Source of the DNA: Candidatus Berkelbacteria bacterium
GTDB taxonomy: Bacteria > Patescibacteriota > UBA1384 > XYA2-FULL-43-10 > CAINNR01
DNA length: 64,000 bases
Assembly: GCA_026397205.1 (NCBI GenBank)
Contig: JAPLVH010000006.1
Location: 13,392 to 77,391, forward strand
Reading direction: 5' to 3'
The notes under the pieces are model-generated. The model had not been told where the DNA came from. It saw only the letters and a program-made list of their open reading frames with translations, and did no database searches. Shown piece after piece: positions 4,088 through 61,338 of the stretch. Within the stretch, counting starts at the first letter, position 1. Each line of letters opens with the position of its first letter. A program made the translations under genes and the position numbers.

Positions 4088-4109
4088 CTTAAGTGACTTA
4101 AGTGACTTA
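4088..4109. repeat. Operon-junction palindrome CTTAAGTGACTTAAG (two overlapping copies) 6 nt upstream of the mreD ATG.
   Basis: 'cttaagtgacttaagtgactta'. No Shine-Dalgarno between it and the ATG at 4115. The same palindrome recurs at 10.87, 13.90, 25.29 and 58.07 kb. Confidence 0.6.
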
Positions 4110-4114
4110 TAATT

Positions 4115-12142: not shown

Positions 12143-12300
12143 AAGAAATAAAAAATAAAAAATCAAATATTAAAATGATAAATCAAAATTCAAAAAGGAT
12201 TTCTGGAATCTTTTTCTTTTTTACTCCGTCATTTTGCATTTTGATTTTTTCTAGCTTCAGCTGACCCTGCGGGGATATTTGCATTTGCAATCCTTCGCAA
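12142..12300. repeat. Complete heptamer-array mini-element: left arm (AAAATCA-like)n, central unique segment, right arm (TGATTTT)n, plus a GATAGCTGACCCTGCGGGGA-type module. It overlaps the iscS 5' end and the 3' end of the Phd-like ORF.
   Basis: 'aaaaatcaaatattaaaatgataaatcaaaattcaaaaagg ... ccgtcattttgcattttgattttttctagcttcagctgaccctgcggggatatttgc'. Confidence 0.65.
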
Positions 12301-13896: not shown

Positions 13897-13902
13897 TTTT
13901 TA

Positions 13903-13934
13903 CCTAAGTTGCTTAGGTGACTTAAGTGACTTAG
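13903..13934. repeat. Operon-junction palindrome (two copies, CCTAAGTTGCTTAGG + TGACTTAAGTGACTTAG) between the upstream gene stop and the tatD start
   Basis: 'cctaagttgcttaggtgacttaagtgacttag'. Confidence 0.6.
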
Positions 13935-14831: not shown

Positions 14832-15110
14832 TCATTTAACCCTCAGTCCCGAATACTCCGAAAGAGTTTTCAAAGTTTCTCGGACCGACGGGTTGCCCGT
14901 GTTTTCAACATTAACCGAATAATTTTCCGCCAACTTGGTAATTACTTCGTCAGCCCAAGAAGGAGTCAAAACTTTGATACCGGAGAAATCAACGACAATC
15001 GTTTCCTTTTTGTCTACATCTCTCAAATGAGATGACATAACCAAAAACGCTTCTCTACCAGCCGGACGAGAAACCAAAATGTCACCAAATTTTACCAATT
15101 CAATTTTCAT
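14832..15110 (-). CDS. STAS-domain / DUF4325-like anti-sigma-antagonist-type protein
   Basis: 92 aa, 'IVVDFSGIKVLTPSWADEVITKL' resembles SpoIIAA-like STAS folds. Immediately downstream of a GHKL ATPase gene. Confidence 0.45.
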   Translation of the reverse strand: MKIELVKFGDILVSRPAGREAFLVMSSHLRDVDKKETIVVDFSGIKVLTPSWADEVITKLAENYSVNVENTGNPSVRETLKTLSEYSGLRVK

Positions 15111-15116
15111 AATATT

Positions 15117-15683
15117 TTAGTTAGAAATAATTGCCAAACAGCCGTTAATTTTTCCTGACTGACTAATTTTCATTTCATTATTTAGCTCGGCTTTGGCCGA
15201 ACCGGAAATGAAAACCAGATGGCTTTCTGTTTGTTTCACACTTTCTTTGACAAATTTCAATCCGTTACCACGAGACTCCGGTGCCCGACCGGAAATTTTT
15301 TCGTTGAAAGCAGTGTCCAAAGCTTCTTGATCATTTTTCAACTCCGGTTTTACTCGTTTCAAAGTTTTTAAAATTCCCTGGCCACGATCGGCTAAAATTA
15401 TTGTCAGCTTTTTGCCGTCAATTTCATAAGCGAAGAAAATTCCAACAATATCCGGCCAGTTCCCCAAATTGTGGTCGAATGAATTATTCCCAATCTCACT
15501 AGCGATTGCTGACAAAATATAAACATCGTTTTCCGGAATCTCAGAATTGTTGAGAAGAAAATTCACCATCGAATCAAATCGAGGTTGAAAAATGTCTCTT
15601 GTGGCACAATAATACTTTTCTTCGATTTGAAAAGCCGTGTCGGATTCTGCCCATTTTTGAGCCAAATTAATAATTTTTTTCAT
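15117..15683 (-). CDS. GHKL-type ATP-binding protein (anti-sigma-factor/RsbW-like serine kinase)
   Basis: HATPase_c boxes: N-box 'EIGNNSFDH', G1 'ADRGQGI', G2 'RGNGLK'. 188 aa with no sensor or transmitter domain. Confidence 0.6.
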   Translation of the reverse strand: MKKIINLAQKWAESDTAFQIEEKYYCATRDIFQPRFDSMVNFLLNNSEIPENDVYILSAIASEIGNNSFDHNLGNWPDIVGIFFAYEIDGKKLTIILADRGQGILKTLKRVKPELKNDQEALDTAFNEKISGRAPESRGNGLKFVKESVKQTESHLVFISGSAKAELNNEMKISQSGKINGCLAIISN

Positions 15684-15703: not shown

Positions 15704-17131
15704 TTATTTCTCAATTCGTGGGAAAAGCGGTTCGGGTTTTAAGGTTTCCAGTTGATGTTTCATTTTGTCCGCGGTTTCCGGCATAAAGTAGGAAATCGGC
15801 GTGACCAGATTCGACAGCGACCGATGGACTTCCGACAAAACCTCAACCAGTTTTCCACTGTCGGACTTCGCCAACTCCCAAGGTTTACTTTGGTCAATAA
15901 ATTGATTTAATTCGGCAATGACTTTCCAAATTTCCGTTAGCGCTTGATCGAATTTCAATTCCTCGATCAGATTTAATATTTTTATGTTTGTTTCTGGTTT
16001 TTCTTCATTTGTTTCGGATTTCGATATTCGGATTTTGTATTTATTTATCATACTTATCGTTCTCTGCAGCAAATTCCCCAACCCGTTCGCCAGGTCAGAT
16101 TGATAACGTGCCGCCAATTTTTCCTCCGAGACATCGCCGTCTTGACCAAAAGGAACTTCACGCAAAAGAAAATAGCGAACGGCATCAACGCAATATTTTT
16201 CCGCAAGCTCTACCGGATCAAGAACATTGCCGAGCGACTTACTCATCTTTGCGCCACCGGAAGTAAAAAATCCGTGAGCGAAAACTTTTCGCGGAATTTC
16301 CTCACCGATCGCCAACAAAAGTGCCGGCCAAATAACGCAATGGAATTTGATAATGTCTTTGCCGACGAGATGTAAATCAGCCGGCCAAAAACGATGAAAT
16401 TCCCGAACATCTTCGCCATAACAGATCGCCGAACAGTAATTAAAAAGTTCATCGAGCCAAACATAAATCGTTTGATTTTTATCCCATGGCAAAGGGAGGG
16501 CAAATTTGGCATTTTGGCGCGAAACGGCGATGTCTTCCAATCCTTGCGAGATAAACGACAAAACTTCGTTCTTGCGTTCATCTGGTGCAATGATTAATTC
16601 GTCACTCTTGATTTTTTTTGTTAAAATTTCGCCATATTCCGACAGTTTGAAAAACCAATTTTTTTCCTTGACGATTTCCGGCTTCGTTTTGTGTTCCGGA
16701 CAAACTCCGTCAACTAAATCTGACTGTTTGACAAACGCCTCGTGGCCGACACAATACAAACCTTCGTAATCCTTTTCATACAATTTCCCCGATTCTTTTA
16801 GTTTGATGAAGAATTTTTCGACCGCTTTTTCGTGGCGCGGTTCGGTTGTCCGAATAAAATCATCGTTGGAAATGTTTAATTTTTTCCAAGCCGACTTAAA
16901 TTTCGGTGCCATCTCGTCGACAAATTCCTCCGGCTCTTTGCCGGCTTTTTCAGCGCTGGCGGCGATTTTGCTACCATGCTCGGCGACACCGGTCAGGAAA
17001 AAAACCTCGTCGCCGCGGGCGCGATAAAACCTTGCCAAAACATCGGCGGCGATTGTCGTATAAGCCGAGCCGACATGCGGTTTATCATTGACATAATAAA
17101 TCGGAGTTGTGATGTAAAACTTTTTGTTCAT
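15704..17131 (-). CDS. metG: Methionyl-tRNA synthetase, short form lacking the C-terminal tRNA-binding extension
   Basis: 'PHVGSAY' HIGH-type motif, 'KMSKSLGNV' KMSKS motif, 475 aa. Confidence 0.85.
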   Translation of the reverse strand: MNKKFYITTPIYYVNDKPHVGSAYTTIAADVLARFYRARGDEVFFLTGVAEHGSKIAASAEKAGKEPEEFVDEMAPKFKSAWKKLNISNDDFIRTTEPRHEKAVEKFFIKLKESGKLYEKDYEGLYCVGHEAFVKQSDLVDGVCPEHKTKPEIVKEKNWFFKLSEYGEILTKKIKSDELIIAPDERKNEVLSFISQGLEDIAVSRQNAKFALPLPWDKNQTIYVWLDELFNYCSAICYGEDVREFHRFWPADLHLVGKDIIKFHCVIWPALLLAIGEEIPRKVFAHGFFTSGGAKMSKSLGNVLDPVELAEKYCVDAVRYFLLREVPFGQDGDVSEEKLAARYQSDLANGLGNLLQRTISMINKYKIRISKSETNEEKPETNIKILNLIEELKFDQALTEIWKVIAELNQFIDQSKPWELAKSDSGKLVEVLSEVHRSLSNLVTPISYFMPETADKMKHQLETLKPEPLFPRIEK

Positions 17132-17168
17132 AATCCAATCGTATCAAATCGAAGTTCTCTCGTAAAGC

Positions 17169-17204
17169 TTGACAAAGCCAAAATTTTTGTGTACTATATA
17201 TAGT
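17169..17204 (+). promoter_or_regulatory. Strong sigma70-type promoter (TTGACA-17-TACTAT) overlapping a 12-bp palindrome, ACTATATATAGT
   Basis: TTGACA 17169-17174; TACTAT 17192-17197; palindrome 17193-17204. The same palindrome plus 'CCACGCT' recurs at 29365-29395. Confidence 0.6.
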
Positions 17205-17234
17205 AAACGACCACGCTCCACAGGGGGCGAGACG

Positions 17235-17393
17235 ATGAGTAAGCTTCTCGAGGTTGCAATGGGAATAGGTTTGGTGTGTATAGCTGCCGGACTTTTGACG
17301 ATCTTCGCCTGTTTGTGTAATGGCAGAAAAACTCGAGAATTCGAAACCATAAATCACATTTCTCTTGACGGCCAACCGCTAGCCCCACACTAG
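17235..17393 (+). CDS. Small hydrophobic membrane peptide (52 aa), stand-alone transcription unit
   Basis: AGGGGG 6 nt upstream of the ATG. 'MSKLLEVAMGIGLVCIAAGLLTIFACLCNGRK...' has a single TM helix. Terminator overlaps the stop. Confidence 0.45.
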   Translation: MSKLLEVAMGIGLVCIAAGLLTIFACLCNGRKTREFETINHISLDGQPLAPH

Positions 17394-17411
17394 CGGCTTT
17401 TTTTTATTTTC
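17377..17411 (+). terminator. Rho-independent terminator
   Basis: 'ccgctagccccacactagcgg' + CTTTTTTTTATTTT. Confidence 0.65.
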
Positions 17412-17431
17412 GCCAAAGAAAAAAGCGACCA

Positions 17432-17899
17432 TTATTCGGCCGCTTCAATGTTTTGTTTTAATTCTTTTTCTTTTTGCCGTAAAATCCAGATTCCAAACAG
17501 AGTCGCGTACAAGGCCGACGCCGATTCCAATGCAAGAAACAACTGGAAATGTCGGCCATCAGCCAAAAAAACCAGTAGAATCGTCAGCGACGCAACTAAT
17601 CCGAGCAACCAAAGACATCGGAAAATAATTCGAGATGACTCGGAGTTTACCAGCTCTGGCAAAACACGCTTTTCTTCCAAAAGATATGCAATGCAGAAAA
17701 TACAGGCGGAAGAAATCCCAAGAAATGCGATCGCGGCTAAAATCAACCCAACAAGTTGCAACGCGTACAAATCAACTGATGGATGTCTGGCAGAAAAAGT
17801 CAGACCAGAACATGTGAGCGCCATTGGAGCCACTCCGAGCCACAAAACAAACATCATGATATTAAACAGCGTCTTGAAAAGATACTTCGCCGTCACCAT
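17432..17899 (-). CDS. Hypothetical membrane protein (four TM helices)
   Basis: 155-aa ORF. Hydrophobic segments with no recognised family. Confidence 0.4.
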   Translation of the reverse strand: MVTAKYLFKTLFNIMMFVLWLGVAPMALTCSGLTFSARHPSVDLYALQLVGLILAAIAFLGISSACIFCIAYLLEEKRVLPELVNSESSRIIFRCLWLLGLVASLTILLVFLADGRHFQLFLALESASALYATLFGIWILRQKEKELKQNIEAAE

Positions 17900-17971
17900 T
17901 TGTCTTCGCCTCCGGAACCTGGAATACCTATTTTATACCACAACGAGAAAAATTTTACAATGCAAAAATTC

Positions 17972-20667: not shown

Positions 20668-20695
20668 TTTGATTTTTAATTTTTGATTTTTGAAT
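20647..20695. repeat. (TGATTTT)n heptamer tract spanning the 5' end of the transporter gene and the gap to ksgA
   Basis: 'tttgaattttgatctgtcattttgatttttaatttttgatttttgaattt'. Confidence 0.65.
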
Positions 20696-21554
20696 TTACA
20701 ACATTATATAATTTTAGCCAGTCCTCAATTGTCAATTCTTGCGCTCTGATTTTTTCCGACAACCCCGCACTTTTAATTATATCAGATGCTTCGGTTTTAG
20801 AGATATGAAGTCCGGCGGCCAAATTATTTTCCAAGGTCTTTCTTCGGCTAGCAAAACCAAATTTGACAATTCGAAATAGATCCGCTTCCTTAACTTTACG
20901 CTTTTCGCTTTTAGTTTTGAGTTTGATAATCGCCGACTCAACTTTTGGCAGCGGGAAAAACGAAGTTGATTTTACAATGTCGACAATTTCCACATCGGCA
21001 TAAAACTGAACTGAAACCGACAAAAGCGACATCTCGCCAGGACGAGCAACAATTCGTTCGGCAACTTCTTTCTGCACCAACAAAACCATCAACTCCGGTT
21101 TGTTGTCCGCTTCCAAAAATTTTCTAATGATGGCAGAAGTAATATTGTAGGGAATATTTGCGACGACTTTGTAGTCATAAGCCGTAAGCTGTAAGCTGTA
21201 AGCCGATAAATCCAGATCCAGCGCGTCTTCATTTACTATTTTAATTTTTACTTTGTCATTTTTCTTGCGATAGCTGACCCTGCGGGGATTTTTGATATTT
21301 GATATTTGATTTAGAAGTTCGGCGAGAAAGTCGTCTTTTTCAATTGCCACGACCCGGCCGGCTCGGCTGACAAGTTCCTCGGTCAAAACTCCCAGCCCCG
21401 GCCCGATTTCGATGACGGTGTCGGTTGATTTTAAATCCGCTGCTTCGACGATTTTCGCCAACACCTCATCGTCAACCAAAAAATTCTGCCCCATATTCTT
21501 TTTCGCCCAAATTTTATTCGCCTGCAAGAATTGAATCAGTTCTTCTTTGTTCAT
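20676..21554 (-). CDS. rsmA: 16S rRNA (adenine1518/1519-N6)-dimethyltransferase RsmA/KsgA, with heptamer insertions
   Basis: 'MGQNFLVDDEVLAKIV...VIEIGPGLGVLTEEL' KsgA signature. Inserts 'SAYSLQLTAY' and 'KNPRRVSYRKKNDKVKIKI'. Confidence 0.85.
   Translation of the reverse strand: MNKEELIQFLQANKIWAKKNMGQNFLVDDEVLAKIVEAADLKSTDTVIEIGPGLGVLTEELVSRAGRVVAIEKDDFLAELLNQISNIKNPRRVSYRKKNDKVKIKIVNEDALDLDLSAYSLQLTAYDYKVVANIPYNITSAIIRKFLEADNKPELMVLLVQKEVAERIVARPGEMSLLSVSVQFYADVEIVDIVKSTSFFPLPKVESAIIKLKTKSEKRKVKEADLFRIVKFGFASRRKTLENNLAAGLHISKTEASDIIKSAGLSEKIRAQELTIEDWLKLYNVVNSKIKN
21181..21203. repeat. (TGTAAGC)n heptamer tract, in frame inside ksgA
   Basis: 'gccgtaagctgtaagctgtaagc'. Confidence 0.65.
21245..21318. 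repeat. Mini-element fragment (GATAGCTGACCCTGCGGGGA module + (TGATATT)n arm), in frame inside ksgA
   Basis: 'gtcatttttcttgcgatagctgaccctgcggggatttttgatatttgatatttgatttag'. Confidence 0.7.
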
Positions 21555-21740: not shown

Positions 21741-22118
21741 ATGCCATTTGTGACCGTCAGGCATTCGAAATTCGTCGCAGTCCCAATATTCTTCACGAAT
21801 ATGCATCACGATTTGCCAAGAATTGTTGCCGATGCTTTGTCGTGTGGAGATGAAAACGGTTCCTTGTCTCCAAAAGACATAGAAATAAAGTTTGAAGCAC
21901 AGGGACCACACGATGTCGATAATTACGATGTTGAAATCCTTGTCACAGCAATGGATTTTCCGAGCCGGAAAGCAAACATACAAGAAAGAGCCGCGTTGAT
22001 TGCTGACAAACTATTGCCAAGAATTCCTCGTCTTGACGAAAAGTATCAGATTTGTGTATTCGTAACACTTTCACCGGCAGGTTTTGCCGAGCAAACTCGT
22101 ACTATACGAGAATCATAA
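21741..22118 (+). CDS. Hypothetical protein (125 aa). Begins Met-Pro; membership of the tautomerase superfamily is possible but unsupported.
   Basis: Promoter and RBS present. 'MPFVTVRH...'. No recognised motif. Confidence 0.4.
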   Translation: MPFVTVRHSKFVAVPIFFTNMHHDLPRIVADALSCGDENGSLSPKDIEIKFEAQGPHDVDNYDVEILVTAMDFPSRKANIQERAALIADKLLPRIPRLDEKYQICVFVTLSPAGFAEQTRTIRES

Positions 22119-23107: not shown

Positions 23108-23110
23108 AGG

Positions 23111-23236
23111 ATTATTATATCAAATATCAAATATCAAAGATCAAAATGTTGGTCGGCACTCCGTGCTGAGATTTTTATATTCTTTTTACCTTTTTCATCT
23201 ATCATTTTGATTTTTGATATTTTATTTTTGATTTTT
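23111..23236. repeat. Complete heptamer-array mini-element (intergenic): (ATCAAAT/ATCAAAG)n arm, core TTGGTCGGCACTCCGTGCTGAGATTT, unique segment, inverted (TGATTTT)n arm
   Basis: 'tatcaaatatcaaatatcaaagatcaaaatgttggtcggcactccgtgctgagattttta...catctatcattttgatttttgatattttatttttgatttttcc'. Fills the whole gap between two minus-strand genes. Confidence 0.7.
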
Positions 23237-25284: not shown

Positions 25285-25323
25285 AAGTTGCTTAAGTTTC
25301 TTAAGTGACGTAAGTCACTTATT
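25285..25323. repeat. Operon-junction palindromes immediately upstream of the helicase start codon
   Basis: 'taagttgcttaagtttcttaagtgacgtaagtcacttat' includes AAGTGACgtaaGTCACTT. Confidence 0.55.
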
Positions 25324-25838: not shown

Positions 25839-25968
25839 CAGACGAATGAGTGCTATTAAATTGTTAATGTTATATTTATTATAACGCACAATTCCCCAAT
25901 TTGTCAAGACATAAAGCGACTATTTTCGATCAGACAAAAAATTAGTCAGTGTGGAAATAGATAATTTA

Positions 25969-26073
25969 TATCAAAAATCAAAATGTTGGTCGGCACTCCG
26001 TACCGGGATTTTATTTCTTTAGATATATTTTATTTGTCATTTTGATTTTTGATATTTGCTTTTTGATTTTCTT
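25969..26073. repeat. Complete heptamer-array mini-element (intergenic). The right arm runs into the promoter of the downstream gene.
   Basis: 'tcaaaaatcaaaatgttggtcggcactccgtaccgggattttatttctttagatatattttatttgtcattttgatttttgatatttgctttttgattttc'. Confidence 0.7.
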
Positions 26074-26115: not shown

Positions 26116-26586
26116 ATGAACCGTGATCGGACAAAAAGCACAATACTCTATTTGCTGGTTTTGGTAGTTCTGGCGACGAGTTTCATCATTTTTGGTGTTT
26201 TTTATTTGAAAGACGCCAAAACTTCCGACAAAAATTCAACGACTTCGACCGCAACTGTGCCGACCGGCGATAATCAAAACCAGAATTTGGAGGAACTACC
26301 CCCCGACCAAAAACTTTACGCCGCGGCGATCGAGAGCATTGACGCTAAAAATTATAATCAGGCGATCAGTAATTTAACCGAGGCGATCAAGGAAAATCCC
26401 GACAATCCGAGTTACTATTCGGTAAAATCGGAGGCCGAGGTTTTGGCCGGCAAAAAAGATGATGCAATCGCAACGCTCGAAGCCGGATTGAAAATCAATC
26501 CGGACAATGAGGTCCTAAATTCCAAGCTGGATGTTCTTCAGAAGAATGATCTGGCGCCGGCGAATCAGGATACGCCGAGACAGTAA
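26116..26586 (+). CDS. TPR-repeat protein with N-terminal membrane anchor
   Basis: Likely start 'MNRDRTK' (tool start 26056). TM helix, then TPR-like 'YNQAISNLTEAIKENPDNPSYY...AGLKINPDN'. Confidence 0.5.
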   Translation: MNRDRTKSTILYLLVLVVLATSFIIFGVFYLKDAKTSDKNSTTSTATVPTGDNQNQNLEELPPDQKLYAAAIESIDAKNYNQAISNLTEAIKENPDNPSYYSVKSEAEVLAGKKDDAIATLEAGLKINPDNEVLNSKLDVLQKNDLAPANQDTPRQ

Positions 26587-26619
26587 AAAATTCCAAATTT
26601 CTAATTTCTAATTTCAAAA

Positions 26620-27576: not shown

Positions 27577-27615
27577 CAATTAACCTAATTGACCTAATTA
27601 TTCTAATTAACCTAA
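27577..27615. repeat. Tandem 9-mer array (TAATTRNYC)x4 upstream of the four-helix-bundle gene
   Basis: 'caattaacc taattgacc taattattc taattaacc taa'. Confidence 0.55.
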
Positions 27616-27618
27616 AAA

Positions 27619-28024: not shown

Positions 28025-28060
28025 GAATAATTAGTATAATTAGAACAATTAGAATAATTT
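28025..28060. repeat. Inverted 9-mer array (GWAYAATTA)x4 downstream of the four-helix-bundle gene
   Basis: 'gaataatta gtataatta gaacaatta gaataattt' is the reverse-complement orientation of the upstream TAATTNNNC array. Confidence 0.55.
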
Positions 28061-29364: not shown

Positions 29365-29395
29365 TACTATATATAGTATATACCGCCACGCTTGT
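29365..29395 (+). promoter_or_regulatory. Second copy of the ACTATATATAGT palindrome + CCACGCT motif, upstream of the glycosyltransferase gene
   Basis: 'ttgactactatatatagtatataccgccacgcttg' matches 17169-17215 ('ttgacaaa...gtgtactatatatagtaaacgaccacgctcc'). Confidence 0.35.
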
Positions 29396-29497
29396 CAAGC
29401 GCTGATGATTTTGCTAAAATCAGAGATATTAAATCTACTATCTCGGATCACCGACGGATTTTACCCTGTGGGCGGGGATGAAAGCTAAATTAAAAAA

Positions 29498-30337
29498 ATG
29501 AAAAACGCTCTGGCAGAAAAAACTTTTGTCGTTGTTGTCACCTTTAATCCGGAGGTTGATCTTTTGAAAAAAAACTTGCGGGCGATTTCCAGTCAGTTTG
29601 CTAATATTTTGATTGTTGACAACGATTCAAAAAACATCGCCGAGATCGAAAAGTTGGCGGCGCGGCTGAATGTCAAAATCGAAAAGTTGGCGGAAAATTT
29701 CGGTATCGCCAAAGCCCAAAATGTCGGGCTGGCGGTGGCAAGCCGGAAAAAATTTGGTTGGCTCCTGACGATGGACCAGGACAGCATAATTCCAAAAAAT
29801 TTGTCGGCAGAGTATCAAAAAGTTTTGGAGTCGCACGATAATGTCGGTTTGATCGGCTGGAATCAACAACCGAGAAAAAATGATCCAGAAGTGAAAGATA
29901 GTTGGTGGATTATTAGTTCCGGTTGCCTATACAAAATTTCAGTGCTGGAGGAGTGCGGCAAATTCGACACTAAATTGTTTATTGATCACGTTGATGATGA
30001 CATAAACATTAGAGTTAGAAATTTAGGATACAAAACTTTAATAACCAAAAAAGTTGATTTGCATCATCAGTTGGGGACAAGAACCCTACACAAAACAATC
30101 CGTGGCGCAGTATATTTTGCCCATAATCCTGTTAGGGTTTATTATATTGTCAGAAATGGAGTGGTAATTTTCAAGAGATACTTCTTTTCCCAACCTCTTT
30201 GGATGATGTATGAAATAAAAAATAATATTCGCGAAGGAATTTACTTGCTCTTATATCAACCGAACAAATTCAAAAACTTTTTTCTGTTGCTCCGCGCCTG
30301 GTTCGACGGACTAACAAATCGGCTGGGGAAATATTAG
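29498..30337 (+). CDS. GT2 family glycosyltransferase (rhamnosyltransferase-like)
   Basis: 'FVVVVTFNPEVDLLKKNLRAISSQ...ILIVDNDS' and a DxD-like 'DQDS' motif. 279 aa. Confidence 0.7.
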   Translation: MKNALAEKTFVVVVTFNPEVDLLKKNLRAISSQFANILIVDNDSKNIAEIEKLAARLNVKIEKLAENFGIAKAQNVGLAVASRKKFGWLLTMDQDSIIPKNLSAEYQKVLESHDNVGLIGWNQQPRKNDPEVKDSWWIISSGCLYKISVLEECGKFDTKLFIDHVDDDINIRVRNLGYKTLITKKVDLHHQLGTRTLHKTIRGAVYFAHNPVRVYYIVRNGVVIFKRYFFSQPLWMMYEIKNNIREGIYLLLYQPNKFKNFFLLLRAWFDGLTNRLGKY

Positions 30338-58095: not shown

Positions 58096-59706
58096 TGTCT
58101 TTTTTTTCGAAAAATCGGTCAGGTGGCCAAGCAATTTCCCGCCGGCACGCCAGAGAAATTTTAAATCATCAGCACTTCGGATGCCACCGATTTTTCGAAA
58201 AATGAATTTCGGTGTCATAAATGACTTATAAAGTCCTTGTGTCAACTCTTTTATGTCCGACTCCGACAACTCCGATTTCATTATGATTTTCCGCTGGTCG
58301 TAATCGTCCCAATTTTTCGTTGTCAGCCAGCCGTTTTTTTGGCACTCTTTAAATAGTGGCGTGCCGGGATAAGGAATAACGATTGTCGCCTGCAAAGTAT
58401 CAACAAAACCCGAGTCAAATAATTTCTTCGACAAAGCGATCGTTCGTTTCGCGTCTTCCAAACTCTCCCACGGATAGCCCATCATTGTCGTAATGTGCGG
58501 CTCGAGTCCAGCCTTTTTCGCCATCCGAACCCCTTTTTCAATTTCGGCGACGCGCAAATTTTTATTAATATGATCGAGAGTTTTCTGATTTGCCGACTCT
58601 AGCCCATACAAAATAAAGCGAAAACCGGCTTTGCCCATTAAATTATATTCTTCTTGCGACAGGGCTTTCAACCGCATATTGCAATCAATTTTGATCTTTT
58701 TGTTGTAGCCGCGAGAAATCATCCCGTCGCAAAATTCTTCAAGCCACGGCCCAATCGGAAACGAGCCGGCGTCGTCCATAACTTCTTTAACTTTATATTT
58801 GTGGATCAGAATTCCGATTTCGTCCAACATTCGCTTGGCCGAATGTTTGCGGTAATCCTTGCCGGGGTAAAGCGTCGTCCAGGAGCAAAATGTGCACTTT
58901 CCCCACCAACAGTCGCGAGCGGAAAAAGTGTAAGTTCCCGGCGTTCGTTTGTAGTTGCCGTTTTTATAGGCGTATAGTTTCCACTTGGTTAAATCCCGAT
59001 CAATCATCGGCAGCTCGTCCAAAATATGATTTAATTCGAAATGTCCGGTATTTTCGAACAGATCCCCTTCCTTCATTTTTCTTGCGATAGCTGACCCTGT
59101 GGGGATCTTTGATTTTTGATCTTTGATTTTTCTAAACCAGATTCCTGCCTCCAATTTTTCTCCGTGATTGATATGGTTCGCAATATTCAGTGCCAAAAAA
59201 TCCCAATCGCCACCGGTGGCGATAAAATCAACCTTTGAATTTTTCATTGACTCCTCCGGCATCGCCGTCACATGATCGCCAACCAAAACGACTTTTACCG
59301 CCGGCATTTCCTTTTTTATCACATCGATGACTTTCCAGTGGCGCTTGACAACCGGTGTTTTGGTTTCAAAGATGATGAGATCGGGACGAAATTTTTTGAT
59401 GCGATCGAGCCAAATTTCCGGCAACAATTCTTCGGCAATGCCATCATCCCACAAGACATCAAATCCTTGCAACTGTAAAAGCGTCGCGACGTAAGCCGGC
59501 ACCATCGGATAAATGTAGGTCGGATTCTTAAACCATTGAAACTGGCGATTCTGCCCAAGACACGGCGTTCCCTTTTTACTCGGCATCGGCGGATAGGAAA
59601 TTGCGATTTTGAATTTTTTATTTTTCTCCAAATGTTCTTTTGTCGGTTTTGAAATGTGTTTAATCGCCATAAGATTTTCATAAAAATAAATATTGAGTTT
59701 CATCAC
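58093..59706 (-). CDS. B12-binding-domain radical SAM protein (class B rSAM), with an in-frame mini-element insertion
   Basis: N-terminal cobalamin-binding-like domain. Cys cluster 'CWWGKCTFC' (CX4CX2C spacing). Insert 'KIKDQKSKIPTGSAIARKMKEG'. Confidence 0.55.
   Translation of the reverse strand: MMKLNIYFYENLMAIKHISKPTKEHLEKNKKFKIAISYPPMPSKKGTPCLGQNRQFQWFKNPTYIYPMVPAYVATLLQLQGFDVLWDDGIAEELLPEIWLDRIKKFRPDLIIFETKTPVVKRHWKVIDVIKKEMPAVKVVLVGDHVTAMPEESMKNSKVDFIATGGDWDFLALNIANHINHGEKLEAGIWFRKIKDQKSKIPTGSAIARKMKEGDLFENTGHFELNHILDELPMIDRDLTKWKLYAYKNGNYKRTPGTYTFSARDCWWGKCTFCSWTTLYPGKDYRKHSAKRMLDEIGILIHKYKVKEVMDDAGSFPIGPWLEEFCDGMISRGYNKKIKIDCNMRLKALSQEEYNLMGKAGFRFILYGLESANQKTLDHINKNLRVAEIEKGVRMAKKAGLEPHITTMMGYPWESLEDAKRTIALSKKLFDSGFVDTLQATIVIPYPGTPLFKECQKNGWLTTKNWDDYDQRKIIMKSELSESDIKELTQGLYKSFMTPKFIFRKIGGIRSADDLKFLWRAGGKLLGHLTDFSKKKT
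59083..59131. repeat. Mini-element fragment (GATAGCTGACCCTGTGGGGA + (TGATYTT)n), in frame inside the rSAM gene
   Basis: 'cttgcgatagctgaccctgtggggatctttgatttttgatctttgattttt'. Confidence 0.7.
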
Positions 59707-59770: not shown

Positions 59771-59998
59771 TTATTTGATTTTATCGAGATCTTTTTTGTC
59801 GAGTTCGGCGAATTTCAAAATATTATTAAGAGTTCCAGGCTTGATAAACTTGTGATTCGGAACAATCAAAACTTTCTTCCGGCCGTTAGTTTTTTCAAGT
59901 TTGATGTGGCTGCCTTTTTGCCCAACAATTTTGAAACCAAAACCAACCAAAACTTTGAGCAATGTTTTGGCCGAAATTTGTGAGTACTTGGCGATCAT
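59771..59998 (-). CDS. hicA: HicA-family mRNA interferase toxin
   Basis: 75 aa. 'LLKVLVGFGFKIVGQKGSHIKLEK...VLIVPNHKFIKPGTLNNILKFAEL' fits the HicA/YcfA pattern (GSH, P.H). Confidence 0.7.
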   Translation of the reverse strand: MIAKYSQISAKTLLKVLVGFGFKIVGQKGSHIKLEKTNGRKKVLIVPNHKFIKPGTLNNILKFAELDKKDLDKIK

Positions 59999-60208
59999 TT
60001 AACAAACTTTCAATTTTAGTGGCACGACAAATTCTCTTTTGCTTTTTGGCAAGGGATTTTTTCCCAAATACAAATTCACCGCTTCGGAAATGTTGCACAT
60101 CGCTTCTTCAAAAGTTTCTCCTTGGGAAAAACAACCAGGAAGCGACGGAACCGAAACGGAAAAACCGCCGTCATTCTCTTCTTGCATTAGAACAAAGATT
60201 TCTTTCAT
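59999..60208 (-). CDS. hicB: HicB-family antitoxin (UPF0150, RNase-H-like fold without a DNA-binding extension)
   Basis: 69 aa. 'GGFSVSVPSLPGCFSQGETFEEAMCNISEAVNLYL' matches the HicB N-domain pattern. Its stop abuts the hicA start. Confidence 0.6.
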   Translation of the reverse strand: MKEIFVLMQEENDGGFSVSVPSLPGCFSQGETFEEAMCNISEAVNLYLGKNPLPKSKREFVVPLKLKVC

Positions 60209-60246: not shown

Positions 60247-61224
60247 TTATCGTTCCAATTTCCGAACCGTCAGTCCTTGGACAAAACGAATTCCATACCA
60301 AATGTGAGTTAGAAAGATCATTGGAATTGTTAGAATACCAATAAGCGGATTTTTGTGACGGAGGGAAATGATGACGGCATCAAATAAAAGTCCTAATCCG
60401 TAAGCAATAAGCGGTAAGAAAAACAAAATTCGAAATTCGAAATTCGAAATTCGAAACAATATCGAAAATAAGAAAATTAAATACAAAACAAATAAAGTCG
60501 GGATAAAGTAGCCGATTTTCAAAGATGTCTGCGGATATTTTTTGGCAAAAAAGCCGCGGTGGAGTGCATAGTTTCCGATTTGTTTGAAATGCTTTAAGAG
60601 ATTGGCGCGACGATGGTGGTAGACAATACCGGCCGGGTCATAAATAATTTTGTAGCCGGCACTTACAATGTCGAGACAAAGTTTTGTGTCCTCGCCCGGC
60701 CAATACTGGCAATCAAATCCGCCGACTTCCTTAAAAACATCGCGCCAGATCAGCAAACTGACCGTCGGCCAGTCGTCGCAAGTTCGACGATTTCCGATTG
60801 GTAGATAACGGTTGCGGGTGAAACCGCCACCGAGATACGACTCGAAAATCGCGCCGGAAACTTTTTGCAAAACGCCGTTTGATGACGGCGTCACTGCTGG
60901 ACAACCGACGGCGCCAACTTCAGATTTGCGAAAATTGGGAATCATCTTTTTTAGCCAGTCGCGGCGCGGATAGGCATCATCATCTAAAAAAGCCAGGACT
61001 TTCCCACGGGCAAATTTCAGCGCCAAATCACGCTTTTCTGCCGGTCCGATCTTGCCAGAAGCGATGATTTTTGTTTTTGGCCAGCGGTGAATTTCATCCG
61101 GTCGGTCGGGAAATATTAAAACCTCAAACTCCGGCCAATCGAGTTTCAGAATATGCTCCATTGATTCGTAAATGTAGTCGTTGATCTTTTTAACCGGAAT
61201 GATAATTGAAACTTTGGGTTTCAT
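60247..61224 (-). CDS. GT2 family glycosyltransferase with a C-terminal TM region
   Basis: 'KVSIIIPVKKINDYI...LAFLDDDAYP' DXD motif. Three C-terminal hydrophobic helices. Confidence 0.65.
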   Translation of the reverse strand: MKPKVSIIIPVKKINDYIYESMEHILKLDWPEFEVLIFPDRPDEIHRWPKTKIIASGKIGPAEKRDLALKFARGKVLAFLDDDAYPRRDWLKKMIPNFRKSEVGAVGCPAVTPSSNGVLQKVSGAIFESYLGGGFTRNRYLPIGNRRTCDDWPTVSLLIWRDVFKEVGGFDCQYWPGEDTKLCLDIVSAGYKIIYDPAGIVYHHRRANLLKHFKQIGNYALHRGFFAKKYPQTSLKIGYFIPTLFVLYLIFLFSILFRISNFEFRILFFLPLIAYGLGLLFDAVIISLRHKNPLIGILTIPMIFLTHIWYGIRFVQGLTVRKLER

Positions 61225-61338
61225 AAATCAAAAATTAAATATCAAAGATCAAAATGTTGGTCGGCACTCCGTGCCGGGATTTATTCTTTTTCATCTTTTT
61301 TATTTATCATTTTAATTTTTGATATTTGATTTTTGCTT
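61225..61338. repeat. Complete heptamer-array mini-element filling the intergenic gap: (ATCAAAA)n arm, core TTGGTCGGCACTCCGTGCCGGGATTT, inverted (TGATTTT)n arm
   Basis: 'aaatcaaaaattaaatatcaaagatcaaaatgttggtcggcactccgtgccgggatttattctttttcatcttttttatttatcattttaatttttgatatttgatttttgc'. Confidence 0.7.

What the first reader, a model, noticed from the sequence alone, without database searches (positions are those of the whole stretch)
17169..17411. Strongly signalled stand-alone gene for a 52-aa hydrophobic peptide; its promoter palindrome ACTATATATAGT-N-CCACGCT recurs upstream of the glycan island
A near-consensus promoter (TTGACA-17-TACTAT), an AGGGGG RBS, a 52-codon ORF with one TM helix and a Cys-rich juxtamembrane segment (CLCNGRK), and a strong intrinsic terminator form a compact unit. 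Units like this are typical of type I toxins, small membrane regulators or leader peptides.

The promoter overlaps a 12-bp perfect palindrome, ACTATATATAGT. This is followed by CCACGCT 6-8 nt later. The same combination occurs at 29365-29395, after the surface-protein gene and upstream of the first GT2 gene of the island. That suggests a shared operator for an unidentified regulator.
Basis: seen in the sequence. Interest (0 to 1): 0.5.

Follow-up and report, generated by a model that had tools for sequence, protein, structure and literature searches.

The report
Unannotated small membrane-peptide gene with palindrome
In a Candidatus Berkelbacteria genome, a compact promoter-to-terminator unit probably makes a 52-residue, lineage-specific membrane peptide; its promoter carries a palindrome identical to the core of an NrdR repressor box that recurs once 12 kb away, but no relatives exist to show what either does.

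Summary
These are TTGACA-17-TACTAT, the AGGGGG ribosome-binding site, the 52-codon ORF 17235-17393 and the terminator 17376-17404. The palindrome is in fact 14 bp (TACTATATATAGTA). It and CCACGCT each occur exactly twice in the 64 kb, always together.

The window is a Candidatus Berkelbacteria MAG. NCBI annotated no gene here, and its nearest relatives have only 68% identical MetRS and a different gene order, so conservation cannot be tested.

- **For coding:** the ORF has the best transmembrane segment of 115 unannotated ATG ORFs. Its ribosome-binding context, GGRGGCGAR, is shared with two neighbouring orphan genes.
- **Against coding:** no homologue was found among 1.8 billion cluster representatives, and the codon score is low. 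The two orphan neighbours score equally low.
- **Other readings of the unit:** a leader peptide is excluded. A type I toxin is unsupported.

The palindrome matches all six conserved NrdR-box positions. It is solitary at both sites, and there are no nrd genes in the window. It overlaps -10/+1 at site 1 and sits at about -55 from the promoter of one plus-strand GT2 gene at site 2. The rest of the glycan island is on the other strand.

Verdict: a plausible orphan small membrane-protein gene plus a probable but unassigned operator. Interest is modest.

The parts
17169..17197 (+). Sigma-70-type promoter: TTGACA (17169-17174), 17-nt spacer, TACTAT (17192-17197). Inferred transcription start near 17204.
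   Evidence: 10/12 match. One search shows intergenic enrichment of such sites in this window.
17192..17205 (.). Site 1 palindrome TACTATATATAGTA (14 bp). It overlaps -10 to +1. As the 16-mer 17191-17206 it matches the NrdR-box positions C4, A6, A8, T9, T11 and G13.
   Evidence: Consensus taken from PMC13584703.
17211..17217 (+). CCACGCT, site 1, at about +7 to +13 of the inferred transcript. Its CGCT belongs to the 5' arm of the leader hairpin.
17214..17229 (+). Leader hairpin CGCUCC-ACAG-GGGGCG (-8.5 kcal/mol). Its 3' arm is the Shine-Dalgarno run.
17222..17229 (+). Shine-Dalgarno region AGGGGGCG, 7 nt before the ATG. The same GGRGGCGAR context precedes the genes starting at 17899 (minus strand) and 21741 (plus strand).
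17235..17393 (+). 52-codon ORF. It has one transmembrane helix (residues about 7-28) and a basic juxtamembrane segment, NGRKTRE. The predicted topology is N-out/C-in. M9 (17259) is a possible internal start, preceded by GAGG.
17376..17404 (+). Intrinsic terminator: 7-bp stem (5 G-C pairs), 7-nt loop, T8. The stop codon TAG lies in the 3' arm.
17422..17446 (-). Convergent terminator of the neighbouring 155-aa gene.
17432..17899 (-). Convergent 155-aa multi-pass membrane protein (NCBI MCX6812206.1). It is also an orphan. Together with the small ORF it fills the lineage-specific insert between rsmI and metG.
29365..29378 (.). Site 2 palindrome TACTATATATAGTA. Its centre is about -55.5 from the inferred start of the GT2 promoter.
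29386..29392 (+). CCACGCT, site 2. It abuts and overlaps the -35 hexamer and starts a second palindrome, CGCTTGTCAAGCG (29389-29401).
29392..29420 (+). Promoter-like site TTGTCA-17-TAAAAT (10/12) upstream of the GT2 gene.
29498..30337 (+). GT2 glycosyltransferase gene. It is the only plus-strand gene at the edge of the glycan island and the only gene site 2 could control directly.

Best explanation
The locus is an unannotated, lineage-specific small gene.

**How it would work.** A near-consensus sigma-70-type promoter starts a transcript of about 200 nt near 17204. A 31-nt leader carries an extended Shine-Dalgarno sequence, GGGGGCGAG, that is partly held in a 6-bp hairpin. Translation from ATG 17235 gives a 52-residue single-pass membrane peptide. 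The peptide has a short N-terminus outside and a 24-residue tail in the cytoplasm, with a Cys-x-Cys at the inner membrane face. An intrinsic terminator that contains the stop codon ends the RNA.

**Its surroundings.** The gene lies with a convergent 155-aa orphan membrane protein in an insert of about 840 bp between the conserved rsmI and metG genes.

**The palindrome.** The 14-bp palindrome over the -10/+1 region is most likely an operator for a dimeric DNA-binding protein. Its sequence is that of an NrdR box. At site 1 a bound protein would block RNA polymerase and so repress. The second copy lies about 20 bp upstream of the -35 of a single GT2 gene, where a bound protein could activate or modulate transcription.

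**Shown versus inferred.** The sequence signals, their statistics, the transmembrane character and the orphan status are shown. Transcription, translation, topology and regulator binding are inferred.
For: **Transcription unit**
- Promoter 10/12, and intergenic enrichment of such sites.
- Terminator z = -3.0, with 0 of 200 shuffles folding as well.
- A facing terminator for the convergent gene. Plus-strand transcription can therefore only come from this promoter.

**Translation**
- The Shine-Dalgarno context GGGGGCGAGACG-ATG parallels GGAGGCGAGAACA-ATG (gene at 21741) and GGAGGCGAAGACAA-ATG (gene at 17899, minus strand).
- The ORF scores best of the six frames.
- Its 19-residue hydropathy maximum, 2.46, ranks first of 115 unannotated ATG ORFs of 40-80 aa.
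- The two annotated orphan genes with the same Shine-Dalgarno type have the lowest coding scores of all 52 genes: -0.75 and 1.26 per 52 codons, against -0.03 for this ORF. A low score is therefore typical of this gene class.

**Palindrome**
- The palindrome and CCACGCT occur only at these two sites.
- All six conserved NrdR-box positions match (PMC13584703).
- A solitary NrdR box with an activating effect has a precedent at the P. aeruginosa topA promoter (PMC4409342).
Against: **Against a translated gene**
- There is no homologue in either protein search. One search found nothing. The four hits are repeat-protein artefacts.
- The coding score sits at the 3rd percentile of real in-frame segments. 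It is exceeded by 27% of stop-free non-coding frames, and the coding/non-coding likelihood ratio is about 0.27.
- NCBI did not annotate the ORF: the flanking proteins have consecutive accessions. It was not called in the Logan contigs either.

**No comparative evidence is available**
- The nearest MetRS is 68% identical and lies in a different gene order.
- Logan contigs from five sequencing runs are 100% identical to the window.

**Against an NrdR operator**
- NrdR does not bind an isolated box in vitro (PMC13584703; PMC12051234).
- No partner box exists at spacers of 14-17 or 24-27 bp.
- There is no nrd or nrdR gene in the window.
- The composite motif was not found in any related genome.
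- The palindrome sits at different positions relative to the two promoters.
Confidence: 0.5

Rival explanations
1. The unit is transcribed, but the RNA is non-coding (a small RNA of about 200 nt) and the ORF is incidental.
For: - The codon score is indistinguishable from stop-free non-coding frames; the likelihood ratio is about 0.27.
- Four frames are open across this stretch.
- There are no protein homologues.
- Two annotation pipelines did not call the ORF.
Against: - The transcript shows no excess structure: z = +0.27.
- No Rfam family matches, even at E <= 5.
- The extended Shine-Dalgarno sequence at ideal spacing, and the best transmembrane helix of 115 comparable ORFs, would both be coincidences.
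- Real orphan genes next door score equally low.
Confidence: 0.22
2. The palindrome is a solitary NrdR-type box. NrdR, loaded with dATP and ATP, would repress the small gene at site 1 and modulate the GT2 gene at site 2. This would tie two envelope genes to the nucleotide pool.
For: - The inner 12 bp equal the NrdR consensus core. The same core occurs in E. coli nrdDG box 1 (GCACTATATATAGACT) and nrdAB box 1 (Table 1 of PMC13584703).
- C4, A6, A8, T9, T11 and G13 all match at both sites.
- A single-box, activating precedent exists at P. aeruginosa topA (PMC4409342).
- NrdR is reported in 77% of bacterial genomes.
Against: - NrdR needs two boxes to bind in vitro, and no partner box is found. 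The best candidate is a poor C-N9-G element over the -35 at site 1, and there is none at site 2.
- No RNR gene is nearby.
- The presence of nrdR in this MAG is unknown.
- The conserved CCACGCT is not part of any NrdR site.
Confidence: 0.18
3. The shared sequence is a promoter core rather than an operator. The palindrome offers -10 hexamers on both strands (TACTAT and TATAGT), and CCACGCT marks the start region. That would make a bidirectional or duplicated promoter module.
For: - Site 1 lies in a divergent intergenic region, between metG and the small ORF. metG has no 9/12 promoter of its own; the best candidates are 8/12, and one of them uses TATAGT of the palindrome.
- At site 2, TCGAGA-17-TATAGT (9/12) on the plus strand, and TTGACA-17-TATATA on the minus strand, can be read directly from the sequence.
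- CCACGCT starts 6 or 8 nt after TATAGT, where a transcription start would fall.
- The left flanks share 7 of 12 positions (and my own reading of the sequence).
Against: - At site 1 the perfect -35 is spaced for TACTAT, not TATAGT.
- At site 2 a better promoter, TTGTCA-17-TAAAAT, lies downstream.
- The minus-strand candidate at site 2 lacks the -7 T and would only make antisense RNA to a surface-protein gene.
Confidence: 0.2
4. The unit is a type I toxin-antitoxin module: a toxic membrane peptide kept in check by an antisense RNA.
For: - Size, a single transmembrane helix and stand-alone expression fit.
- The Shine-Dalgarno sequence is sequestered in a 5' hairpin of -8.5 kcal/mol.
Against: - No opposite-strand promoter scores 9/12 or better within or beside the ORF. 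The best is TTGGCC-18-TATGGT at 8/12.
- There is no minus-strand terminator for such an RNA.
- No known toxin family matches.
- The locus is single-copy.
- The leader is only about 31 nt long.
Confidence: 0.06
5. Nothing functional is here. The promoter-like and terminator-like matches are chance, and the two motif copies are a remnant of a short duplication.
For: - Recurrence of some 14-bp palindrome occurs in 10 of 150 shuffles.
- Promoter-like sites also occur inside genes: 31 of 43.
- No conservation data exist.
Against: - The combination is unlikely by chance: a 10/12 promoter, a Shine-Dalgarno sequence, an ATG, a clean transmembrane ORF and a terminator that no shuffle equals, all in correct order within 240 bp of intergenic DNA.
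- The palindrome and the 7-mer co-occur at both sites and only there.
Confidence: 0.1

Closest known systems
Bacterial small membrane proteins of under 60 aa encoded by stand-alone, often unannotated genes (for example the E. coli single-pass small proteins, from general knowledge)
   Same: - Length and a single transmembrane helix with basic residues on the cytoplasmic side.
- Its own promoter, Shine-Dalgarno sequence and terminator.
- Missed by annotation pipelines.
- Lineage-restricted.
   Different: - There is no sequence relative of any kind.
- No expression data exist.
- The partner or target is unknown. The only hint is the convergent 155-aa orphan membrane protein.
NrdR boxes (NrdR repressor of ribonucleotide reductase operons)
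   Same: - The 16-mers GTACTATATATAGTAA and CTACTATATATAGTAT match all six highly conserved positions.
- The inner 12 bp are identical to the consensus core.
- Site 1 overlaps the -10/+1 region, as NrdR boxes do.
   Different: - The box is solitary at both sites, whereas canonical sites are pairs with 15-16 bp or 25-27 bp linkers.
- The downstream genes are a membrane peptide and a GT2, not RNR genes.
- An extra conserved CCACGCT follows the palindrome.
- nrdR has not been shown to be present in this genome.
Type I toxins (Hok, Ldr, TisB, Fst, Ibs/Sho, TxpA/BsrG classes)
   Same: - A small hydrophobic single-helix peptide.
- Stand-alone expression.
- A Shine-Dalgarno sequence partly sequestered in a hairpin.
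   Different: - No detectable antisense RNA gene.
- No family match.
- A short leader.
- Single copy.

Membership tests
Small single-pass membrane protein gene | Hydrophobic stretch of about 19-23 residues, with positive charges on one flank | tested here: met
   The 19-residue hydropathy maximum is 2.46, ranking first of 115 comparable ORFs. NGRKTRE follows the helix.
Small single-pass membrane protein gene | Translation signals: a start codon with a Shine-Dalgarno sequence at 5-10 nt | tested here: met
   GGGGGCGAG lies 7 nt before the ATG. The same context precedes two neighbouring genes.
Small single-pass membrane protein gene | Coding signature or conservation of the reading frame | tested here: inconclusive
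   - It is the best of six frames, but at the 3rd percentile of real genes, with a likelihood ratio of 0.27.
- Orphan neighbours score equally low.
- There are no homologues.
- No diverged strains are available.
Type I toxin-antitoxin | Overlapping or adjacent antisense RNA gene with its own promoter and terminator | tested here: not met
   No minus-strand promoter scores 9/12 or better; the best scores 8/12. There is no minus-strand terminator in 17132-17420. This is a consensus scan only, so weak promoters are not excluded.
Type I toxin-antitoxin | Membership of a known toxin family | tested here: not met
   Pfam gives only a chance MLANA hit at E = 0.12. NCBIfam gives nothing.
Type I toxin-antitoxin | Toxicity of the peptide on overexpression | not testable with these tools
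   This needs an experiment.
Leader peptide / attenuator | A regulated gene downstream on the same strand, beyond the terminator | tested here: not met
   The next gene, 17432-17899, is convergent and has its own facing terminator.
NrdR binding site | A 16-bp partially palindromic box with C4, A6, A8, T9, T11 and G13 | tested here: met
   Six of six conserved positions match at both sites. Consensus from PMC13584703.
NrdR binding site | Two boxes separated by 14-17 bp or 24-27 bp | tested here: not met
   No partner with C4 and G13 lies at those offsets on either side of either site.
NrdR binding site | Location in the promoter of a ribonucleotide reductase operon | tested here: not met
   The downstream genes are the 52-aa ORF and a GT2. 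No RNR or ATP-cone domain was found in any ORF of the window.
NrdR binding site | nrdR encoded in the genome | not testable with these tools
   Only 64 kb of the MAG is available. The contig is not retrievable beyond the window.
Known RNA families (Rfam) | A covariance-model match | tested here: not met
   There is no match at gathering score in the window. At E <= 5 only terminator-like noise appears.

The most novel reading that the evidence does not exclude
A genome-reduced CPR bacterium uses solitary NrdR-type boxes, extended by a CCACGCT element. They would place a lineage-specific membrane peptide and a glycosyltransferase under the nucleotide-pool sensor NrdR, or under a new regulator that has adopted the NrdR box sequence. 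That would couple cell-envelope remodelling to DNA-precursor supply from the host.
Probability: 0.1. Interest if true: 0.55.

Novelty: new member of a known kind. Interest (0 to 1): 0.3.

Why it matters
**If the peptide is real.** It would add one more unannotated, orphan small membrane protein to a phylum (Berkelbacteria, CPR) in which small proteins and regulation are almost unexplored. Together with its 155-aa orphan neighbour, it would mark a lineage-specific insert in the otherwise conserved rsmI-metG neighbourhood.

**If the palindrome is a genuine NrdR-type operator.** It would extend the NrdR regulon beyond nucleotide metabolism in a bacterium that depends on a host for nucleotides.

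Neither point can be settled from sequence. As it stands this is a plausible but ordinary small-gene candidate with a two-copy motif.

Tried and rejected
- **Homologues of the peptide.** The word-indexed search found none. Exhaustive HMMER against 1.84 billion representatives gave four hits. All are long repeat proteins that match through hydrophobic low-complexity repeats. tblastn against the window and all fetched loci found no paralogue.
- **Genome-wide motif search.** ACTATATATAGT-N4-9-CCACGCT gave 3 hits in 185,579 species genomes and 12 in the metagenome collection. All are in unrelated contigs with unrelated flanks, so they are chance level. The source genome is not in either collection.
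- **Synteny in relatives.** The closest MetRS genes are 68% and 67% identical and sit behind an AI-2E transporter gene, with no divergent small ORF.
- **Strain variation.** Logan contigs from five runs are 100% identical to the window, so they carry no information on selection.
- **The 155-aa neighbour.** It is also an orphan, so it gives no route to relatives.
- **Integration-site reading.** I considered the two motif copies as attL/attR of an island. I rejected this because the 12 kb between them carries housekeeping genes (rsmI, Nramp, ksgA, a yabE-like gene, pcrA/uvrD) and no integrase.
- **Structured RNA.** There is no Rfam hit and no folding excess.
- **Partner NrdR boxes.** None were found.
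- **Literature.** No paper links NrdR to CPR or Patescibacteria.
- **Retrieving the rest of the 82-kb contig.** This failed.

Full report
**Source and context**

The MetRS encoded at 15704-17131 (minus strand) is 100% identical to MCX6812205.1 of a Candidatus Berkelbacteria MAG, on an 82-kb contig. The next best MetRS is only 68% identical.

The window carries housekeeping genes in a Bacillus-like order, judged from general knowledge of the B. subtilis yabC-abrB-metS-yabD-yabE-rnmV-ksgA region:
- mreBC, PBP2, greA, mnmA, a class-V aminotransferase, a NifU-like scaffold protein, tatD and metG;
- then rsmI, an Nramp transporter, ksgA, a G5/DPBB yabE-like gene and pcrA/uvrD.

From 29.5 kb to 63 kb there is a glycan/envelope island with GT2, GT4, DegT, epimerase, methyltransferase, PMT_2 and radical-SAM genes. 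Rfam and ARAGORN find nothing in the window.

**Checking the observation**

Every element is present as described:
- TTGACA (17169)-17-TACTAT (17192);
- AGGGGG at 17222-17227;
- ATG at 17235 and the stop codon ending at 17393;
- the terminator CCGCTAG-N7-CTAGCGG-T8 at 17376-17404.

The terminator folds at -10.8 kcal/mol, and no shuffle of 200 equals it.

The palindrome is 14 bp, TACTATATATAGTA, at 17192-17205 and 29365-29378. The 12-mer is expected 0.01 times and found twice. CCACGCT occurs only twice in the window on either strand, each time 6 or 8 nt after the 12-mer. No degenerate copies exist.

A family-wise control tempers this. Some 14-bp palindrome recurs in 10 of 150 dinucleotide shuffles, mostly A/T-run types. 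The adjoining 7-mer and the intergenic position of both sites are what make the pair non-random. Beyond the motif the flanks do not align.

**Is it a transcription unit?**

Sigma-70-like sites scoring at least 10/12 number 43 in the window. Twelve of them lie in the 9.75% that is intergenic, several in front of genes such as greA, 21741, 28059 and the GT2 gene. The consensus therefore carries information in this organism.

The neighbouring 155-aa gene is convergent and has its own terminator at 17446-17422. A separate plus-strand terminator at 17376 is therefore explained only by transcription from the 17169 promoter. I infer an RNA of about 200 nt, from about 17204 to 17404.

It is not a leader, because nothing lies downstream on the same strand. 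It has no excess secondary structure (z = +0.27) and no Rfam match even at E <= 5.

**Is the ORF translated?**

In favour:
- The ribosome-binding context GGGGGCGAGACG-ATG closely parallels GGAGGCGAGAACA-ATG (gene at 21741) and GGAGGCGAAGACAA-ATG (gene at 17899, minus strand). From general knowledge, GGAGGUGA is the complement of the 16S rRNA 3' end, and the central G can wobble-pair.
- The frame scores best of six.
- The hydrophobic segment VAMGIGLVCIAAGLLTIFACLC, followed by NGRKTRE, is the best transmembrane-like segment of all 115 unannotated ATG ORFs of 40-80 aa.

Against:
- The 3-periodic Markov score, -0.03, lies at the 3rd percentile of real in-frame segments and is typical of stop-free non-coding frames. 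The likelihood ratio is about 0.27.
- Neither protein search finds a relative.
- Pfam and NCBIfam give nothing.
- NCBI annotated no gene between MCX6812205 and MCX6812206. The Logan gene calls skip it as well.

The codon argument is weakened. The two annotated genes with the same Shine-Dalgarno type, 21741-22118 and 17432-17899, are both orphans. They have the lowest coding scores of all 52 genes, -0.75 and 1.26 per 52 codons. The small ORF is therefore typical of this local class of lineage-specific genes.

I put translation at roughly 60-65%.

A 6-bp hairpin, CGCUCC-ACAG-GGGGCG at -8.5 kcal/mol, holds the Shine-Dalgarno sequence. M9, preceded by GAGG, is a possible alternative start.

**What kind of small gene?**

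- A type I toxin is not supported. No minus-strand promoter scores 9/12 or better (the best scores 8/12), and there is no minus-strand terminator. There is also no family match and no second copy.
- The positive-inside rule predicts an N-out/C-in topology with a 24-residue cytoplasmic tail. This is an inference.
- The only contextual hint is the convergent 155-aa multi-pass orphan protein. It shares the 840-bp insert between rsmI and metG with the small ORF.

**The palindrome**

Its inner 12 bp equal the consensus core of the NrdR box. The 16-mers at both sites match all six highly conserved positions: C4, A6, A8, T9, T11 and G13 (PMC13584703). For comparison, E. coli nrdDG box 1 is GCACTATATATAGACT.

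Several points count against a canonical NrdR site:
- NrdR needs two boxes, 14-17 or 24-27 bp apart, and does not bind isolated boxes in vitro. No partner box exists at either site.
- No RNR or ATP-cone gene lies in the window.

A solitary, activating NrdR box has been reported genetically at P. aeruginosa topA (PMC4409342). The reading is therefore not excluded, but it fails two defining features.

The position differs between the sites. At site 1 the palindrome centre is at about -5.5, a repressor position. At site 2 it is at about -55.5 from TTGTCA-17-TAAAAT, with CCACGCT abutting the -35 and starting a second palindrome, CGCTTGTCAAGCG.

An alternative is that the palindrome supplies -10 hexamers on both strands. 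This would be relevant to metG, which lacks a good promoter. At site 2 it would work with TCGAGA-17-TATAGT.

With two copies and no relatives, these readings cannot be separated. Exact scans of 185,579 species genomes and of the JGI metagenome set returned only unrelated, chance-level hits.

**Correction to the island claim**

Only the GT2 gene at 29498-30337 is on the plus strand. The remaining island genes, 30391-63132, are on the minus strand and run towards site 2. Site 2 cannot be an operator for the island.

**Verdict**

The most likely reading, at about 0.5, is an unannotated orphan gene for a single-pass membrane peptide whose promoter overlaps an operator-like palindrome. The palindrome's sequence is that of an NrdR box, but membership of the NrdR system is not established.

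It is a new member of a known kind and of modest interest. The decisive data are the rest of the MAG, transcript and peptide detection, and binding assays.

Noticed in passing
window-wide; e.g. 20668-20697, 23108-23146, 61225-61254, 4090-4114, 13897-13933, 25285-25321, 26586-26619, 27588-27618, 28030-28058: Short tandem repeats of about 7-9 nt sit immediately upstream of many start codons, in genes that lack a Shine-Dalgarno sequence. The units are (ATCAAAA)n, (CTTAAGTNA)n and (AATTAGA/TTTCTAA)n. The largest family has 23 copies. They may be translation- or transcription-initiation elements specific to this lineage.
   Followed up: partly
23109-23174, 25946-26011, 61217-61282; and 12243-12299, 21256-21312, 59073-59129: There are two families of 57-66-nt intergenic repeats, with three copies each. 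One contains a GGTCGGCACTCCGTGCCGG hairpin after ATCAAAA repeats. The other contains GCTGACCCTGCGGGGAT. Their function is unknown.
   Followed up: no
59771-60208 (-): A hicB-hicA type II toxin-antitoxin pair is embedded in the glycan island. HicA_toxin matches at E = 3e-16 and HicB_lk_antitox at E = 2e-11.
   Followed up: yes
29478-29501 (+): A seven-codon upstream ORF, MKAKLKK, follows GGGCGGGG. Its stop codon overlaps the GT2 start codon as ATGA, so translational coupling is possible.
   Followed up: no
17432-17899 (-), 21741-22118 (+), 17235-17393 (+): Three ORFs share the ribosome-binding context GGRGGCGAR. All three lack any family assignment, and the 52-aa ORF and the 155-aa protein also have no homologues in database searches. 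They have the lowest coding-potential scores in the window. They may be young or acquired lineage-specific genes.
   Followed up: partly
17132-17971: The conserved rsmI-metG neighbourhood is interrupted by an insert of about 840 bp. The insert holds only the two orphan membrane ORFs. In the closest relatives, metG instead follows an AI-2E transporter gene.
   Followed up: partly
17131-17166 (-): metG has no Shine-Dalgarno sequence. An extended -10 candidate, TTTACG-17(TGn)-TACGAT, ends 6 nt before its ATG. This would make the metG mRNA leaderless.
   Followed up: no
14832-15683 (-): A DUF4325 (STAS-like) protein and a weak HATPase_c_2 match (E = 6e-4, below the Pfam cut-off) lie just downstream of metG. 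If the match is real, they form a possible partner-switching pair.
   Followed up: no
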